A stretch of DNA of 64,000 nt from an uncultured Verrucomicrobiae bacterium (GTDB taxonomy: Bacteria; Verrucomicrobiota; Verrucomicrobiia; Chthoniobacterales; JAFAMB01), in the NCBI GenBank assembly GCA_963813025.1, contig CAWEXO010000013.1:32001-96000 (forward strand). Direction: 5' to 3'. Under the pieces are notes generated by a model. It was not told the origin of the DNA. It did not search any database and saw only the letters and a list, made by a program, of their open reading frames with translations. A program made the position numbers and the translations under genes. Below, piece after piece: positions 50,020 to 64,000 of this stretch. Each line of letters begins with the position of its first letter. The first letter of the stretch is position 1.

Positions 50020-50251
50020 CGCGAACAACCGTAACACGCACGGCCGCGTGCGTCACGGGATCGAAAGATTGCACAACGTTTCTGGGTGGTCCGCATGAGC
50101 ACGGACGAGGCCGGGCTTATCGGACTTTGGAAAATCTGTAGCACGCCACCCAAGCGATTGGTCGCCCGAGCGGTTAGAGATCGTCTCAGAATGCCGCACT
50201 GTCTTGTGGGTGTAGGGCAGTATGTGAGTATGTCTCGCAACATCTCAAAAT

Positions 50252-56716: not shown

Positions 56717-58117
56717 CTACTGCCCTTTCACTTCAAAGCCGCTGGCGGCCGCGTTTTTCAATGATTCGTTTTGCCAGGCGTCCAACGCTTGTTTCACGGG
56801 CGCTTTCCCGCTGAACAAAGCTTCAATTTGTTTGTTGAAGTTATCGTTTACAAACGCGAACCAAGGCGACCACGCAAAATTGACATCGACCGCTTTCGAA
56901 GCCTGCGCGAACACGTCTGCCACGTTCTGGCCCCCGCAGAATTTGGAAGGATTTTTGTCTGGCTGATTCAGCTTCGGCGACGTTAAGCCTGCAATGGAGG
57001 CCGGGAAAATTGCGTAATTGTTCCAGTTCGCGATCACCGCGGCCTCAGAGGTGTTGAGCCAGATTGCAAACAACGTCGCCGCTTTCGGATGTTTTGATTG
57101 TTTGGTGACCACGTTGCAGCTACCACCCCAGTTGCCACTGCGAATCTCGCCTTTGCTCCATTGCGGGAGTGGCGCGACTCGCCATTCACCGGAGGTCCGA
57201 TCGTTCAAAGAAGCCGCCGTCACTCCCGGACCCCAGGCCGCTTCGATTGAAGCCGCGATTTCACCGGCGCCGACCGCATTATAAAATTCGGCGGTGAACC
57301 CGGGGATCGCGGCGACATATTTCTTTTTCACCAAACCGTCCCAGTACGTCAGGACTTTTTCGGCTACGGGGCTGTTCAACGTTTGAATCCAAGAGTCGCC
57401 CTGGGGTTTAAAGAACTTGCCGCCGGCGGCCCAAACCAACCCCATGTACCAGGGAGCGCTGGTCGTATAAAAGTTCGCCATCTTGGCTTTTCCGTTGGTG
57501 GCCTGGGAGAGCTTCTCAGCTTGTGCGGCAAACTCGTCCCACGTCGTTGGCACGGTGATTCCGTACTGATCAAAGATCCTTTTGTTATAGAGCAAGGCCA
57601 ACGGACCGCTGTCTTGCGGAATACCGTAGACCGCTTGACCGTCCGGCGAAACCTGTGCCCAGGTCCAGGGAACAAAGTACGATTTGACGTCGTTTGCGCC
57701 ATTTTTCGACAGATCGAGTAGCCCGTCTGTCACAATGAACGACGGCAGAAAATCGTACTCGATCTGTGCGACGTCCGGTGCACCGGAGCCCGCGCGCAAT
57801 GCGGTCTGCAGCTTTTGGTACTCAGCCGGGCCGCCCCCGATGTTGTTCACGTGTACCTTTATGTTTGGGTACACCTTCTCAAACATCGGCGCGACCTTAT
57901 CCAGGCCACCGACCCACGACCAGAGTTCCAGTGTAATCTGACCCTCTTCCGGTTTGAATTTGCTGAAGTCCGGTTCCTTGAAATCCTGGGCGCGTGCCGG
58001 CAACAACGTAAGCGCAAAACCCGAACAGATTGCTGTTAGCCACAGTCGGCGAGTTGCGCTGCTCTTGCCGCGCCAGGGGAGACTAAGAAGTCTAAAAGAT
58101 CGAATTAGGTTGTACAT
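56717..58117 (-). CDS. Carbohydrate ABC substrate-binding protein
   Basis: Signal peptide ending [31 protein letters not shown]. Confidence 0.9.
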
Positions 58118-58258
58118 AGGGGGGAGAAGAAGCCGCCCTCGGCGGCCCTCAGTCTCTGGTAGGTCACGGCGTGAGGCGAGGCAAGCAAAAAACCGGTTTC
58201 CCTACCAGCGGCCGATGAGCTTTTCGGCGATTGATCATTGGCCATCGGTCATCGGCCA

Positions 58259-59317
58259 TCAGTCGGCTACCGGTTGTTGCTGGGTGAGACAGTGAAACGC
58301 ACCAAGCCCCCAGACGAGGGCACGCGCATCGATCGGTACAATCTCCCGCTGGGGAAAGCAGGACGCCATAGTTTCGATCGCTTTCTCGTCCTCCGCAGCA
58401 GCGAATGTTGGTAGCAGAACTACTTTGTTGCCGATATAAAAGTTGGCGTAGCTCGCCGGCAGACGCCGACCTTCCCGGACTTGGCGAGGCGGCATGGGCA
58501 GGCTAATGATCCGCAAGGGCGTCCCGTCTTCAAGTGTCATCGCGGAGAGCAACTCCAGATTTTGTTTGAGCGGAAAACGGTTGGGATCGTCTTTGTCTGA
58601 CTCCGACGCTGTCACTACGGTAGTGCGGTCAACGAAACGGGTAATATCATCGATGTGCCCGTCGGTATCGTCACCCTCGATCCCGTTGCCCAGCCAGAGG
58701 AAGTTTTTCGCTCCGAGGAAGTTGGCGAGCGTCTGTTCGATATCATCCTTGGTTTTTCCGGGATTGCGATTCGGATTGAGGAGACAGGACGCGGTGGTCA
58801 GCAGAGTGCCGGCGCCGTTGACTTCAATGGAGCCGCCTTCCATCACAATGCCCGGATAAAAACAGGGAAGGGAGAGCGCCTCTGCGATCCTGGTGGGCAC
58901 GATCTCATCGAGATCGAACGGTGGATACTTGCCGCCCCAGGCGTTGTAATTCCAGTCGATGATCGCCAGTCTTGGCTCTTTTCTTCGCCGGATGAACATC
59001 GGTCCGTGATCCCGGCACCAAGGCTCATTGGTAGGGATATGGAAAAATTCTACGTGCGCGGCATCGATCTCCGCCAGCGCGTTCCGGATATGCGCCTCTT
59101 CGTCCCCGTCCTGCACGTTAATCCTGACCTTCTCGGATCCGGACAATGCGTCAATCATTTGGACAAAAACGGGAATCACCTCGTGATACGCGCCGGGGAA
59201 GCTGATGCCGGTTTCGTGGGGCCAGGAGAGCCAGACGGCCTCGTGCGGTTCCCATTCCGCCGGCATACGGTAGCCCTCGGCGGCAGGAGTATTGGCGTCG
59301 AATGAGTGTTTTTGCAT
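58259..59317 (-). CDS. aguA: Agmatine deiminase family protein
   Basis: MPAEWEPH, WCRDHGP, EGGSI, DTDGHID, ASYANF, GAFHCLTQQQP. Confidence 0.9.
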   Translation of the reverse strand: MQKHSFDANTPAAEGYRMPAEWEPHEAVWLSWPHETGISFPGAYHEVIPVFVQMIDALSGSEKVRINVQDGDEEAHIRNALAEIDAAHVEFFHIPTNEPWCRDHGPMFIRRRKEPRLAIIDWNYNAWGGKYPPFDLDEIVPTRIAEALSLPCFYPGIVMEGGSIEVNGAGTLLTTASCLLNPNRNPGKTKDDIEQTLANFLGAKNFLWLGNGIEGDDTDGHIDDITRFVDRTTVVTASESDKDDPNRFPLKQNLELLSAMTLEDGTPLRIISLPMPPRQVREGRRLPASYANFYIGNKVVLLPTFAAAEDEKAIETMASCFPQREIVPIDARALVWGLGAFHCLTQQQPVAD

Positions 59318-59354
59318 GAACTCGTTCAGCCTCGAAGCACGGGAGAACCCGTTA

Positions 59355-60227
59355 CTAATCCAGGTAGCGCTTCGTCAGATTCTCGTAGGCGTCAATCCGA
59401 CGATCGCGCAGGAAAGGCCAATGGGTTCGCTGCCGGTCGAGCACTGTGAGATCCACCTCGACCAGCAGCACCTCATCGCGATCACTATTCGCCTTTCCGA
59501 GAAGCGCTCCGGCTGGGTCGCTGACAAAGCTTCGTCCCCAGAATTCAATTCCCGGGCCGCCATCGGGCGCTTCGTGACCCACTCGGTTAGGCGCGGCAAC
59601 AAAACATCCGTTGGCAATGCCATGGCTCCGTTGGATTAGCTCCCAGGAAGTGTATTGACGTTCGCCAAACTCGCCCTTCTCGGACGGGTGCCAGCCTATC
59701 GCCGTTGGGTAAAACAAAATCTGGGCGCCCGACAGTGCGGTCAAGCGGGCGGCTTCCGGATACCACTGGTCCCAGCAAACCAAAATTCCGAGCCGGGCAT
59801 AGCGTGTTTTCCAGGTGCGGAAGCCAAGGTCGCCGGGAGTGAAATAGAACTTCTCGTAAAATAGCGGGTCATCGGGAATATGCATTTTGCGGTACTTGCC
59901 GAGGTAAGTGCCGTCTGCATCGAGGACCGCTGCCGTATTGTGGTACAGACCGGGCGCCCGACGCTCAAACAGGGAAGCTACAATGACAACACTGAGTTCG
60001 GCGGCCACTTTCGCAATTCGATTGGTGGTCGGGCCGGGGATCTCCTCAGCAAATTCGAAGTATTTGTGGTCCTCAACCTGGCAGAAGTACTGGGTGGCGA
60101 ATAACTCCGGCAGACAGACGATTTGCGCTCCGCCCGTGGCGGCCTGCCGGATCATTGATTCGGCTTTTTCAACGTTCTCCTTCGGGTGAGCCGAACAGCT
60201 CATCTGCACCAGCCCGATTATCGGCAT
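59355..60227 (-). CDS. aguB: N-carbamoylputrescine amidase (nitrilase superfamily)
   Basis: LPELF, YRKMHIPDDP.FYEKFYF, CWDQWYPE, PTAIGW, WPFLRDRR. Confidence 0.88.
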   Translation of the reverse strand: MPIIGLVQMSCSAHPKENVEKAESMIRQAATGGAQIVCLPELFATQYFCQVEDHKYFEFAEEIPGPTTNRIAKVAAELSVVIVASLFERRAPGLYHNTAAVLDADGTYLGKYRKMHIPDDPLFYEKFYFTPGDLGFRTWKTRYARLGILVCWDQWYPEAARLTALSGAQILFYPTAIGWHPSEKGEFGERQYTSWELIQRSHGIANGCFVAAPNRVGHEAPDGGPGIEFWGRSFVSDPAGALLGKANSDRDEVLLVEVDLTVLDRQRTHWPFLRDRRIDAYENLTKRYLD

Positions 60228-60365
60228 GAGACCTAGTAGCATAAGCGCGACGAAGGACAACGAGACACTCGGATATCAGCTGTCTCTCGGATTTTGCGAA
60301 GTCTGGAGCGCACGCATCGAGTGATCGGTGAGACAAGAATTGAAAGCCGTCCCACAACATTCTTC

Positions 60366-60657
60366 GCCCTGTGCCGGTAGGGCGAAAATTTATTCGAGCT
60401 CTTGGCGAGAACTTGTTTGAGCCGGACGCTGGAGTTGCCACATCCAAGGCGGCTTCTCCTTCGCTAAGGGGATCGGGCGCATTCCACGACATGCAGTGAA
60501 ATGGCGGAATCTTCGTGGCAGAATCTGGATAATGAACGATGTTGGAAAACAATGTCGTTTCTGAGCCTTGGGCAGAGACTTGTTCGATCTTTCTGGAACA
60601 TTGCTGACCCAACGCCCGGCTCAAACAAGTTCTCGCTAAGGCTCGAATGAATTTTCG
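60366..60657. repeat. REP-like family C inverted pair; right arm cut by IS110 and resumed at 62355-62371
   Basis: Left arm 60366-60425 gccctgtgccggtagggcgaaaatttattcgagc...ttgtttgagccgg; right arm 60616-60657 ends attttcg and continues gccctaccggcacagg after the IS. Confidence 0.9.
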
Positions 60658-60796
60658 TATAGCAAGTCCGTATAGCAAGTCCGGAGTTATTCAGCAAGCT
60701 GTGGTCGGAGGCCCTACCGGTCGGAGCTCCAGCTTGTGAATAACTCCGCCCGGAGAAAAGAAAGCTTTGGAAAAAAGAAAGGGTTTTCTTTGCCAA

Positions 60797-60994
60797 GGGC
60801 AGTCGGGCAAAATCCCGCGCTGCCCACGCGAAGAAGGACGCGCCGGCTGGCTACGAATAGGATTTTCGGGTCCGCGAGATCTTTAGGGCAGAGTTTCGAG
60901 CCAGCCGGTCGCGCTTTGATTCGTCACAACGAATACTCTAGTTGAGGTCGAGCACTTCACACTTCGACGACTTAACTATACGGATTTCGGACGG
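60797..60994 (+). ncRNA. Putative bridge RNA of the IS110 (5' stem-loop, target-binding loop, donor-binding loop); ends approximate
   Basis: Stem ccggctggct/agccagccgg encloses attttcg (target left) and tagggcag (reverse complement of the right junction); second loop holds atact and ctatacgg (donor). Confidence 0.75.
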
Positions 60995-61048
60995 CCAAAG
61001 CCAAGCGGCTTTTTTCGCGCTGGGTAAAACCAGAAAAAAGGAGCAAGC

Positions 61049-62323
61049 ATGAACCGATCAAATCCGTTTCCGGTCCCAGATCCCCATTATATGGTCAGCG
61101 TGGGAATCGATTGGGCTGATAAAGAACACGCTGTCTGTCAACGCTCTGGTCCGGAGGGAGGATGCCGGACATTCCAGCTGGGCGCCGATCCCGTTTCGGT
61201 TCGGACCTGGCTCGAAGAGCTCAAAAGCTTGGCTGGTCCGCAGGGGCGGGTGGCCATTGGTTTTGAACAAAATCGGGGAGCACTCTTTGAAATGCTCCGC
61301 ACCCAGGGAGACTGGATCGACCTCTATCCGCTCAATCCTTTGAGTTTAAGCGAATACCGCAAGGTCTTCTTTACTAGTGGCGCCAAGGATGACCCTCGCG
61401 ACAGCCAATTGATCGAAGAGCTCGTTGATCACCATCGGGATCGGCTCCGGCTTTATCAACCCCCGGAGCCGGTAGTGCGGGAACTGGATTTGCTCGGTCA
61501 GCACCGACGCAAAGCCGTCGAGGCCTCCGTGGTGTGCGAAAACCAACTCACCAGCTTACTCAAAGTCTACTATCCGCTGGCCCTCGAGCTCCTCGATGAT
61601 TTGGGCACCACTCTGGCGCTGCATTTTTTGAAACGCTGGCCGACCCTGCAGAGTTTAAAAAAAGCCAAGCCCCAGACCCTGCGCTCTTTTTTTTATCAGC
61701 ACCACAGCCGCAGCCAGAGCTTGATCGAGGAGCGCTTGGAAAAGATTGCTCGGGCCCAAACCGTCACCGAGGATCGTTCTCTGCTGGAGCCCTCCGTGCT
61801 GAGTTGCAAGTGTTTGGTCAGTCAATTGTTGCCGCTGCGAGATTCCATCAAGGCTTTTGACAAAGCCATCCACACTCTGTTTGCCAAACATCCCGATCGG
61901 CACATTTTTGAAAGTCTGCCCGGAGCCGGCCCGCAATTAGCCCCGCGCTTGTTGGTGGCTTTTGGCTCCAATCGGCAGGCTTTTGCCCAAGCCCTGGAGG
62001 TACAGAAAAAAAGCGGAATCGCTCCGGTCCAAGTGCGCAGCGGCCAAACCAAAAGCGTCCAGCGGCGGCGCTTTCGCTCCAAATTCCTGTGCCAGAGCTT
62101 CCACGAATTCGCGGCTCATTCCATTCCTTATTCCCAATGGGCCAAGCTCTATTATCAAGAGCAAATGGCCCGCGGTAAGTCCCACCACACTGCCGTGCGC
62201 GCCTTGGCCTTTAAATGGATCCGCGTCATCTTCCGGCTCTGGCAGGACCGCACCCCTTATGACGAAGAGCGCTACCTCCAAGTCCTCAAAAAACGCCACT
62301 CACCAATCGGTGAAAAACTTTAA
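61049..62323 (+). CDS. IS110-family recombinase/transposase
   Basis: VGIDWADKEH, GFEQ, KDDPRDS (DEDD); SLPGAG; GIAPV..RSG serine; SD aaggag. Confidence 0.93.
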   Translation: MNRSNPFPVPDPHYMVSVGIDWADKEHAVCQRSGPEGGCRTFQLGADPVSVRTWLEELKSLAGPQGRVAIGFEQNRGALFEMLRTQGDWIDLYPLNPLSLSEYRKVFFTSGAKDDPRDSQLIEELVDHHRDRLRLYQPPEPVVRELDLLGQHRRKAVEASVVCENQLTSLLKVYYPLALELLDDLGTTLALHFLKRWPTLQSLKKAKPQTLRSFFYQHHSRSQSLIEERLEKIARAQTVTEDRSLLEPSVLSCKCLVSQLLPLRDSIKAFDKAIHTLFAKHPDRHIFESLPGAGPQLAPRLLVAFGSNRQAFAQALEVQKKSGIAPVQVRSGQTKSVQRRRFRSKFLCQSFHEFAAHSIPYSQWAKLYYQEQMARGKSHHTAVRALAFKWIRVIFRLWQDRTPYDEERYLQVLKKRHSPIGEKL

Positions 62324-62601
62324 CTTTTTCCCTTGCCAGACCTGCTCAGATACTGCCCTACCGGCACAGGGGCTTGCTCATCGTCGGAGCATCGGCATTC
62401 TCACCGGTTGTCTTTGAACAAGCTACAAGATCTCATCCTTAGGGGAAGACGTTTCGCTTTCGGGTGCAGATGGTGACGATGCAAAGCATTATGATGAGAA
62501 AAATGTTGCCAGAGCCGATACCCGAACCAGGCTCACTGATCGTGCCAAGATTGCGGATCTGGGCGTTCACGTTACACTAAACTTTTCCAAGGTGTTTTCT
62601 T

Positions 62602-63153
62602 ATGCTGGAAGATGTTCGAGTGATCATTCATACCGCTAAGGGCGACCTGGAAGCGACGCTCTTTCCGTCCAAAGCCCCGCTCGCGGTTGCCAATTTCCTG
62701 AACCTGGCGCAGCGAAAATATTTCGACGGTCTGACGTTTCACCGGGTTGTCCCGCGGTTCGTCATTCAAGGTGGGGATCCTGTGGGCAATGGGACTGGTG
62801 ATCCTGGGTATCGGTTCGAGAATGAGATTGATCGCACGCTCTCTCATCAACAGGTCGGAACGCTCGCCATGGCGAATGCTGGCCCCGACACCAATGGCAG
62901 CCAATTCTATGTCACGCTTGCGCCGCTTCAGCCTGGGCACGTGAAAGCATTGGACGGCAAGTACACGATCTTCGGTCAAGTCACCAATGGCATGGACGTG
63001 GCAAACCGTGTGGAGCAGGGAGACAAGATCCTTTCGATCGCTATTCTTGATCCGACCCCGCCCGTGCTCGAGGCGCAGAAAGATCGACTGGCGAAATGGA
63101 ACAAGGCTCTGGATCGCAAATTCGGATCTCGCCTCGGACCGATTGCCGGATGA
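62602..63153 (+). CDS. Cyclophilin-type peptidyl-prolyl isomerase
   Basis: FDGLTFHRVV..FVIQGGDP.G.GTG.PGY, MANAGPDTNGSQF. Confidence 0.95.
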   Translation: MLEDVRVIIHTAKGDLEATLFPSKAPLAVANFLNLAQRKYFDGLTFHRVVPRFVIQGGDPVGNGTGDPGYRFENEIDRTLSHQQVGTLAMANAGPDTNGSQFYVTLAPLQPGHVKALDGKYTIFGQVTNGMDVANRVEQGDKILSIAILDPTPPVLEAQKDRLAKWNKALDRKFGSRLGPIAG

Positions 63154-64000
63154 GTCTGTTCACATCCGACTACGACTATGCCTTGCCTGAGGAGCTGATC
63201 GCTCAATATCCGCCGGAACGCCGGGGCCAATCACGTTTGATGGTTCTGGATCGGGCAAACCAAAGTGTAACTCATCATTCGTTTTCCGAATTGCCTGATC
63301 TTCTCTGGCCAGGTGAGCTGGTCGTTCTCAACGATACCCGGGTGATCCCCGCGCGAATCCATCTGCCGGATCGGAGCGCGGAAATTCTTTTACTGGAACA
63401 AATCGACGCCACCACGTGGCGATCGCTCGTTCGGCCGGGAAGATGGTTCAGCGTCGGACGAAGATTTGCGTTGGGCGGGATCAACGGCGAAGTCCTCGGG
63501 ATCACCGAGCAAGGCTATCGGGTGATCCGGTTTGACCAGTCGCCCGACCTGGAGGCGATTGGCGAGGTACCACTGCCACCTTATCTGAACCGGGCTGCTG
63601 AGCCTATCGATCGGGAACGGTACCAAACGGTCTTCGCGAGACGCCCGGGTGCGGTAGCGGCCCCGACGGCAGGATTGCATTTTACCGAGGGTATCCTTCG
63701 AAGAGTGCCGCACGTCTATATCACTCTCGAGGTCGGACCCGGTACTTTCCAACCGGTGAAAGTGGAGCGCATCACCGATCACTCTATGCATTGGGAAACT
63801 TTCGAAGTGACCTCGGCGGCGGCAAAAAAGCTTCAAGAGGCCGAAAGCGTTCTGGCCGTAGGAACAACCACGGTCCGAGTGCTGGAGACTCTAGCCAAAC
63901 CCGGCTCGATCATCCCGGGCCGGAGCAAAACCGACATCTTCATCCATCCGCCGTTCACTTTTCGGCGCGTGAACAGTCTCTTAACCAATTTTCATTTGCC
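63150..64000 (+). CDS. queA: tRNA preQ1 S-adenosylmethionine ribosyltransferase-isomerase, partial (runs off window)
   Basis: MSLFTSDYDYALPEELIAQYP, NDTRVIPAR, PLPPY, YQTVFA...GAVAAPTAGLHF, VGTT.VR.LE, TNFHL. Confidence 0.95.
   Translation, partial: MSLFTSDYDYALPEELIAQYPPERRGQSRLMVLDRANQSVTHHSFSELPDLLWPGELVVLNDTRVIPARIHLPDRSAEILLLEQIDATTWRSLVRPGRWFSVGRRFALGGINGEVLGITEQGYRVIRFDQSPDLEAIGEVPLPPYLNRAAEPIDRERYQTVFARRPGAVAAPTAGLHFTEGILRRVPHVYITLEVGPGTFQPVKVERITDHSMHWETFEVTSAAAKKLQEAESVLAVGTTTVRVLETLAKPGSIIPGRSKTDIFIHPPFTFRRVNSLLTNFHL

What the first reader, a model, noticed from the sequence alone, without database searches (positions are those of the whole stretch)
60884..60983. Apparent single-G core and post-exchange 'handshake' bases in the guides
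Seen: target ATTTTC-G-CCCTA and reconstructed donor GATACT-G-TATAG share only one G. The right target guide extends as tagggcAG, complementary to the recombined right junction ctgcccta (62353-62360) rather than to the empty target. The right donor guide extends as ctatacGG, which pairs with the left junction tcgtatag with one G-T wobble. Known: IS621 has a 2-nt CT core and handshake pairing that favours strand exchange. Inference: same directional logic with a shorter or mismatched core. Caveat: the left donor guide reads atactC, not atactG.
Basis: partly seen in the sequence, partly recalled or inferred. Interest (0 to 1): 0.7.

Follow-up and report, generated by a model that had tools for sequence, protein, structure and literature searches.

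The report
Bridge-RNA transposon with mismatched crossover core
This RNA-guided jumping gene joins two DNA sites that share only one base at the crossover instead of the usual two, and its guide RNA appears to use the differing base to push the reaction towards insertion, which suggests such gene-editing tools need not have matching crossover bases.

Summary
The junctions are real and systematic. This IS110 element (60658-62355) has 10 full copies and 1 truncated copy in a REP-like repeat: left junctions read TTC-G|TATAG in 11 of 11, right junctions ACT-G|CCCTA in 9 of 10 (one A). None shares a dinucleotide. Comparison with CT-core relatives places the shared G at IS621 core position 9; position 8 differs (target C, donor T). 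The guide bases opposite position 8 pair Watson-Crick only with the partner strand: 26 of 26 in 13 homolog rows from three branches, 0 of 26 with their own substrate. The canonical handshake positions 6-7 give no net forward bias in this element, so the bias comes from position 8. ISEsa2-type relatives show target-derived, variable bases at 8-9 on the left and fixed donor bases on the right, consistent with a top-strand join after position 9. Cleavage sites, circle and RNA were not observed. Verdict: IS110 bridge system, new variant with a mismatched core used as handshake.

The parts
60649..60657 (+). Left target half, positions 1-9 in IS621 numbering; C 60656 = position 8, G 60657 = position 9
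   Evidence: 201 of 218 near-matching empty sites carry CG
60658..62355 (+). IS110-family element, from the right donor half (TATAG) to the left donor half ending ACTG; boundary after position 9 is inferred
   Evidence: 10 full copies and 1 truncated copy in G000; boundary by homology and ISEsa2 junctions
60658..60683 (+). 13-bp tandem duplication of the element's first bases; the inner junction ends TCCG, a 4 of 4 Watson-Crick match to right donor guide bases 60981-60984
   Evidence: 3 of 11 left ends in G000, on two haplotypes 27 substitutions apart; 0 of 21 relatives; duplex energy
60682..60748 (+). Inverted repeat in the left end, probable 5' stem-loop of the bridge RNA (inferred)
   Evidence: arms located; also seen in relatives
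60836..60914 (+). Target-binding loop of the predicted bridge RNA
   Evidence: fold z = -2.51 for 60830-61010; consensus fold of 6 relatives, with no two-sided compensatory change
60860..60868 (+). Left target guide GGATTTTCG, positions 1-9
   Evidence: changes with the target in relatives
60884..60892 (+). Right target guide and handshake: C 60889 reads G9, A 60890 reads donor T8, G 60891 reads donor C7, A 60892 opposite position 6
60936..60944 (+). Probable left donor guide CTC(T)AGTTG with a bulged T, matching CTCAGATA of the right end; it stops short of the core
   Evidence: variable three bases match the donor at 95 of 114 positions (108 with wobble) in 38 rows, against 56 of 114 for the scaffold motif
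60976..60984 (+). Right donor guide and handshake: C 60981 reads G9, G 60982 reads target C8, G 60983 opposite position 7, A 60984 reads target T6
61049..62323 (+). IS110 DEDD recombinase, 424 aa; D21, E73, D115, D118 and S331 present
   Evidence: PF01548 and PF02371 above cut-off; S331 aligns with the IS621/ISCro4 catalytic serine motif; residues read
62333..62338 (+). -35-like hexamer TTGCCA; 17 bp from TATAGC across the reconstructed circle junction (promoter inferred)
   Evidence: spacer 17 in 25, 18 in 10, 16 in 3 of 38 rows
62345..62355 (+). Left donor half CTCAGATACTG; T 62354 = position 8, G 62355 = position 9
62356..62361 (+). Right target half CCCTAC
60377..60389 (-). Intact copy of the target motif on the other arm of the REP-like repeat

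Best explanation
An IS110 bridge-RNA recombinase system with IS621-like geometry in which the two-base core is not shared. SHOWN (sequence): target CG and donor TG at positions 8-9; the guide bases opposite position 8 are complementary to the partner strand, not to their own substrate; the same arrangement recurs in separate branches. INFERRED from IS621 and CazIS110: the element leaves as a circle whose junction CTCAGATACTG-TATAG builds a promoter; target and donor top strands are cut 3' of the G; the freed 5' arms swap loops; A 60890 then pairs with donor T8 and G 60982 with target C8, which favours the forward exchange; junctions keep the top-strand sequence, so the left junction always shows the target base and the right the donor base. 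Position 8 has thus become a handshake position and the effective shared core is one base.
For: Junction counts. Register: CT-core relatives have the same ends with CT where this element has YG. Tally of 36 rows: in 23 matched-core rows position 7 is the handshake (target loop post-exchange Watson-Crick 23 of 23, cognate 1 of 23); in 13 position-8-mismatch rows both loops pair Watson-Crick post-exchange 26 of 26 and cognate 0 of 26. Net Watson-Crick gain at positions 6-7 is above zero in 22 of 23 matched rows but only 2 of 13 mismatched rows (0 here); adding position 8 makes all 13 positive. Separate origins on the tree: clade A with L035 (target CA, donor TA; empty CA sites 4 of 5); L108 (CG/TG; empty sites CG 7 of 7), whose sisters L107 and L125 share TG and carry A instead of G in the donor guide; L004 (TT/AT). 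ISEsa2-type elements: 5 of 8 distinct left flanks differ from the donor GA while 13 of 13 right junctions keep it, with the empty-site length fixed by at least 123 matches against 1. IS621 top-strand cut at 9|10; top-strand-dominated integration in CazIS110.
Against: No circle junction, RNA or cleavage site was observed. Copy C4 has A at position 9 on the right and G on the left, the reverse of the top-strand rule if its target had A (4 of 219 empty sites do); its only other internal difference is also G>A, so later mutation is plausible. Ten of the 13 rows are one clade, so independent events number about three. L004 has no empty site in its genome. The target-loop 3' anchor is one base off. 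G 60983 pairs Watson-Crick with the donor at position 7, which in IS621 strongly reduced recombination. The parser scored positions 9 and 8 when choosing the right-junction register, though for the mismatch rows the CTCAG+6 anchor and a 4-5 of 5 match at positions 10-14 fix it independently. Rows L008 and L106 were dropped as unresolved and four rows were re-anchored by hand.
Confidence: 0.66

Rival explanations
1. True one-base overlap: the top strand is cut after the G and the bottom strand just before it, so position 8 never forms a heteroduplex and the handshake dinucleotides have physically shifted one base.
For: Position 8 always follows its parent. Copy C4 fits a one-base heteroduplex resolved to the bottom strand. 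The target-loop strand is one base longer than in CT-core relatives. Donor-loop pairing at position 7 has flipped to the cognate strand in 12 of 13 rows.
Against: IS621 has a 4-nt stagger and its junctions still follow the top strand, so no new geometry is needed. L035 has the short linker and the same mismatch. L108 and its matched-core sisters differ by a guide base, not by spacing.
Confidence: 0.17
2. No core at all: the cut is 5' of the G, the element runs G-TATAG...GATACT, and the G on the target side is a coincidence.
For: Copy C4 (A on the right, G on the left). Anchored on its 3' stem, the target loop aligns AG with the CT-reading bases of relatives, and the donor has CT there.
Against: The shared base persists in 13 of 13 mismatch rows as three different letters (G, A, T) with both guides changing in step, whereas position 10 is shared in only about 6 of 23 matched rows (read). 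Both element ends and the other guides place G at 9. ISEsa2 left junctions vary through position 9.
Confidence: 0.09
3. Position-8 mismatch is merely tolerated: each right guide just records the junction it must bind for excision, with no effect on direction.
For: In the IS621 excision complex the right guides bind the hybrid junctions. ISEsa2 tolerates many target bases at 8-9. The donor-loop energy difference is small (-9.8 against -8.9 kcal/mol, RNA parameters).
Against: In IS621 extra pairing to the junctions before exchange inhibits excision and favours insertion. The loss of bias at 6-7 tracks the mismatch at 8.
Confidence: 0.08

Closest known systems
IS621 / ISCro4 (IS622) bridge recombinases
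   Same: DEDD plus serine recombinase, two-loop RNA in the left end, REP-like target, promoter across the circle junction, post-exchange handshake pairing.
   Different: Core is CG/TG rather than CT/CT; G replaces the nearly invariant T9; direction comes from position 8 rather than 6-7; left donor guide sits two bases further from the core; protein 424 aa and only remotely similar (E about 1e-5 to 1e-6).
ISEsa2-type IS110 elements (closest named family found)
   Same: About 41% identical protein; same scaffold motifs and the same CTCAG and TATAG ends; target and donor bases at 8-9 often differ.
   Different: ISEsa2 has a GA consensus at 8-9 and accepts variable target bases through T-rich guides; here the mismatch is fixed and read by Watson-Crick pairs. 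The search for ISEsa2 listed 11 papers, all strain genomics by title and abstract start.
CT-core members of the same subfamily (G015 element, L080, L012 and others)
   Same: 39-47% identical proteins, alignable RNA loops and ends, handshake logic.
   Different: They share CT at both junctions and get their bias from positions 6-7.
CazIS110-1
   Same: Multi-copy IS110 element; top-strand-dominated excision and integration would explain junctions that follow one strand.
   Different: Its core bases were not given in the text I saw; sequence relationship not tested.

Membership tests
IS110 family (IS110 group) insertion sequence | DEDD RuvC-like domain PF01548 plus Tnp domain PF02371 with catalytic serine | tested here: met
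IS110 family (IS110 group) insertion sequence | Long left non-coding end, short right end, specific target | tested here: met
   left end 391 bp, right end 32 bp; 11 of 11 insertions in one motif
Bridge-RNA recombinase system | Two-loop RNA whose four guides match target and donor halves and covary with them | tested here: met
   (predicted structure; covariation across homologs)
Bridge-RNA recombinase system | RNA is expressed and binds the recombinase | not testable with these tools
   needs RNA data or biochemistry
Bridge-RNA recombinase system | Circular intermediate with a junction promoter | tested here: inconclusive
   17-bp spacer in the reconstruction; junction itself not seen
IS621-type core model | Identical dinucleotide core at both junctions | tested here: not met
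   CG left, TG right in G000 and close relatives
IS621-type core model | T at position 9 | tested here: not met
   G here; A in L035; no covarying residue in the E-Q-S/N-R-G loop
IS621-type core model | Net gain of handshake pairs at positions 6-7 after exchange | tested here: not met
   2 Watson-Crick plus 1 wobble before and after; gain appears only with position 8
IS621-type core model | Top-strand cut between positions 9 and 10 | tested here: inconclusive
   supported indirectly by end homology and ISEsa2 junctions; copy C4 is an exception
IS1111 group | Long right end carrying the RNA and subterminal inverted repeats | tested here: not met
   RNA-like region lies in the left end; right end is 32 bp

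The most novel reading that the evidence does not exclude
A whole IS110 subfamily (this element, ISEsa2 and relatives) needs no DNA identity between donor and target: positions 6-9 are set by the RNA alone, strand transfer is effectively top-strand only, the donor site spans about 16 bases with the left donor guide displaced by two, and the same enzyme makes the recurrent 13-bp end duplication by joining its left end to an internal perfect handshake match. Any two sites could then be joined, one way, by programming the guides to read the partner strand.
Probability: 0.3. Interest if true: 0.8.

Novelty: new variant of a known kind. Interest (0 to 1): 0.6.

Why it matters
The current model treats core positions 8-9 as invariant and always paired, leaving positions 6-7 to set direction (PMC13626964, passage), and editing designs filter site pairs for identical cores (10.1101/2025.05.14.653916). 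Natural, multi-copy elements with a fixed mismatch at position 8, read in trans by both guides, suggest a third programmable handshake position. That would widen the pairs of sites that can be joined and could make products harder to reverse. It also warns that pipelines which define IS110 ends by a repeated core (PMC11208160) can mis-call such elements.

Tried and rejected
Late point mutation in this copy: rejected. 'atactC' as left donor guide: rejected (a first version of this test had regex errors and was redone). Rfam search of 58000-64000: two weak chance hits only. Public runs: no RNA holder listed; contigs of X1 and X2 showed no joints, so no circle junction was seen, which is no evidence either way; the X1 contig lacks the 13-bp duplication. 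Protein determinant for G at position 9: none seen in the RuvC loop. Empty site for L004: 0 exact matches, and the one-mismatch search was below its control. L100: left junction only three bases from a contig end and a second copy lacks the G, so it was left out of the tally. L008 and L106: guides and junctions could not be reconciled, dropped; L007, L081, L063, L127, L037 lacked one junction or were not parsed. Viral-contig scan for right junctions: 2 unrelated hits. Family-wide pattern searches added junctions of the same type and one orphan right end. Excision scars with donor bases in otherwise intact G000 targets: none. The careful tree did not finish; the quick IQ-TREE result is used. 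Earlier findings of the scan: three look-ups returned nothing.

Full report
What is there. The stretch lies in the left end of an IS110 element whose 424-aa protein carries PF01548 and PF02371, with D21, E73, D115, D118 and S331 in place. The genome holds 10 full copies and one truncated left end, all in one REP-like motif; 201 of 218 near-matching empty sites read CG at the crossover. The region folds into two internal loops (z = -2.51; consensus of six relatives, no two-sided compensatory change).

Observation. All 11 left junctions read TTC-G|TATAG. Right junctions read ACT-G|CCCTA in 9 of 10; copy C4 has A in place of G. Among close relatives outside this genome (those at 50% protein identity or more), 21 of 21 distinct left flanks end CG and 15 of 15 distinct right flanks have CTG. 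No copy shares a dinucleotide, so the mismatch is a property of the element.

Register. In IS621 the top strands are cut between positions 9 and 10, the right guides cover 8-14, the handshake bases read 6-7 of the partner after exchange, T9 is nearly invariant, and the bottom cut falls between 9* and 10* (PMC11208158, parts 1-4 of 9 read). Relatives at 39-47% identity have a shared CT core and the same end motifs: CTCAG plus six bases on the right, TATAG on the left. On these anchors, and on the left target guide and right donor guide, the G here is position 9 and position 8 is C in the target, T in the donor. The target-loop 3' stem gives an offset of one, but that linker varies in length within the close clade. 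Independent support comes from ISEsa2-type elements (about 41% identical): in 13 records with 8 distinct left flanks, the last two left bases are GA, GA, GA, AT, TG, AA, TA, AC, while every right junction keeps the donor GA; the empty site has the matching length (at least 123 matches against 1) and variable bases there. So in this subfamily the left junction takes 8-9 from the target and the right from the donor.

Handshake at position 8. I tabulated 44 loci; 38 gave both junctions, two (L008, L106) were dropped as unresolved and four were re-anchored, leaving 36. In 23 matched-core rows (20 CT, 2 TG, 1 AT) position 7 behaves as in IS621. In 13 rows position 8 differs, and there both guides pair Watson-Crick with the partner strand (26 of 26) and never with their own substrate (0 of 26; 12 wobbles). 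Counting positions 6-7 alone, the gain in Watson-Crick pairs on exchange is positive in 22 of 23 matched rows but in 2 of 13 mismatched rows; for this element it is zero. With position 8 all 13 are positive. The 13 rows are not independent: ten form one clade with L035 (CA/TA) nearby, L108 (CG/TG) lies in another well-supported clade beside TG/TG sisters whose donor guide has A instead of G, and L004 (TT/AT) in a third, weakly supported group (quick tree). Empty sites confirm the target base for L035 (4 of 5) and L108 (7 of 7), not for L004. The parser scored positions 8-9 when choosing the right register; for these rows the end anchor and positions 10-14 fix it anyway.

The caveat. ACGAATA-CTC is near-constant across the family whatever the donor reads. 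The bases after CTC(x)AG follow the donor: 95 of 114 identical (108 with wobble) in 38 rows, against 56 of 114 for the scaffold. The left donor guide is therefore probably 60936-60944 and ends two bases short of the core, unlike IS621's.

Mechanism. Shown: junction sequences, guide complementarity, recurrence. Inferred: circle formation with a 17-bp -35/-10 spacer, a top-strand cut 3' of G, arm exchange driven by A 60890 and G 60982, and fixation of top-strand sequence, which fits top-strand-dominated integration in CazIS110 (10.1101/2025.10.25.684509, part 1 and passages) and single-strand excision in IS621 (10.64898/2026.08.31.748434, parts 1-2). Against: copy C4, the cognate pair at donor position 7, and the lack of any direct view of circle, RNA or cuts.

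The duplication. Three of 11 left ends repeat their first 13 bases. The window copy is otherwise identical to four copies without it, and a second carrier differs by 27 substitutions and has a sibling without it, so it arose more than once or was converted. The new junction ends TCCG, a better match to the right donor guide than the real target (-13.6 against -9.8 kcal/mol, RNA parameters). A half-match strand transfer is my guess; slippage on a 2-bp microhomology or an assembly effect is not excluded, and 0 of 21 relatives show it.

Literature. PMC13626964 (part 1 and passages) calls the core invariant. 10.1101/2025.05.14.653916 (passages) requires matching cores. 10.64898/2026.04.29.721476 (passages) finds that CT and GT cores do not cross-react, with guides I assume were programmed to their own substrates. 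PMC11208160 (passages and a supplement search) changed the first core base in donor and target together. PMC11187229, 10.64898/2026.03.19.712850 and 10.64898/2026.08.14.744561 (passages) did not describe this in what I saw; the first notes that target duplication is not characteristic of these families. Searches for mismatched, non-matching or single-base cores listed no paper that describes a natural mismatch read in trans. Figures, bioRxiv supplements, one scanned supplement and subscription papers were not visible and could hold such a case. The labels REP-like and attC-like are my own reading of the repeats.

Verdict. Real, systematic and recurrent; an IS110 bridge system that fails the shared-dinucleotide test and appears to use core position 8 as its handshake. 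New variant of a known kind, directly testable.

Noticed in passing
window 50218-50228 (- strand): In a REP-like unit the left target half is replaced by an 11-mer matching the element's right end at 10 of 11 bases, followed by CCCTAC: probably the remnant of a deleted copy.
   Followed up: partly
window 60658-60683; G000:C11 near 77970; G000:C1 near 207990: Recurrent 13-bp duplication of the left end whose inner junction is a perfect match to the right donor guide.
   Followed up: partly
window 60936-60944 and homolog loci L004-L126: Across this subfamily the left donor guide sits two bases further from the core than the left target guide, often with one bulged base, implying a donor site of about 16 bases.
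   Followed up: partly
L136-L148 (ISEsa2-type plasmid records): ISEsa2-type elements insert into a short palindromic repeat and keep variable target bases at both core positions on the left junction only.
   Followed up: partly
G000 copies C13:132005, C11:84151, C11:77585: A second haplotype with 23-27 substitutions relative to the window copy, clustered in the middle of the transposase gene, suggesting recombination with a related element.
   Followed up: no
L004:about 1250-1300 and right flank: This homolog sits in what looks like an integron attC-type site although its RNA is in the left end (label recalled, not tested).
   Followed up: partly
L118 and L100 (G048): Two copies of one element differ at the left junction: one has G before TACAG, the other lacks it.
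   Followed up: no
G000:C13:19819, C3:83269, C11:73278, C13:453129, C13:100462: Further, distant IS110-type genes (about 26-33% identity), some broken.
   Followed up: no
L130 (G018:C33 near 322150): An orphan right end of this clade without its transposase, reading CTC-TCCTA at the junction.
   Followed up: no
L043 downstream flank: A repeat unit in which donor-end bases replace the target bases next to CCCTAC, at the contig end; scar, microhomology deletion or assembly chimera.
   Followed up: no
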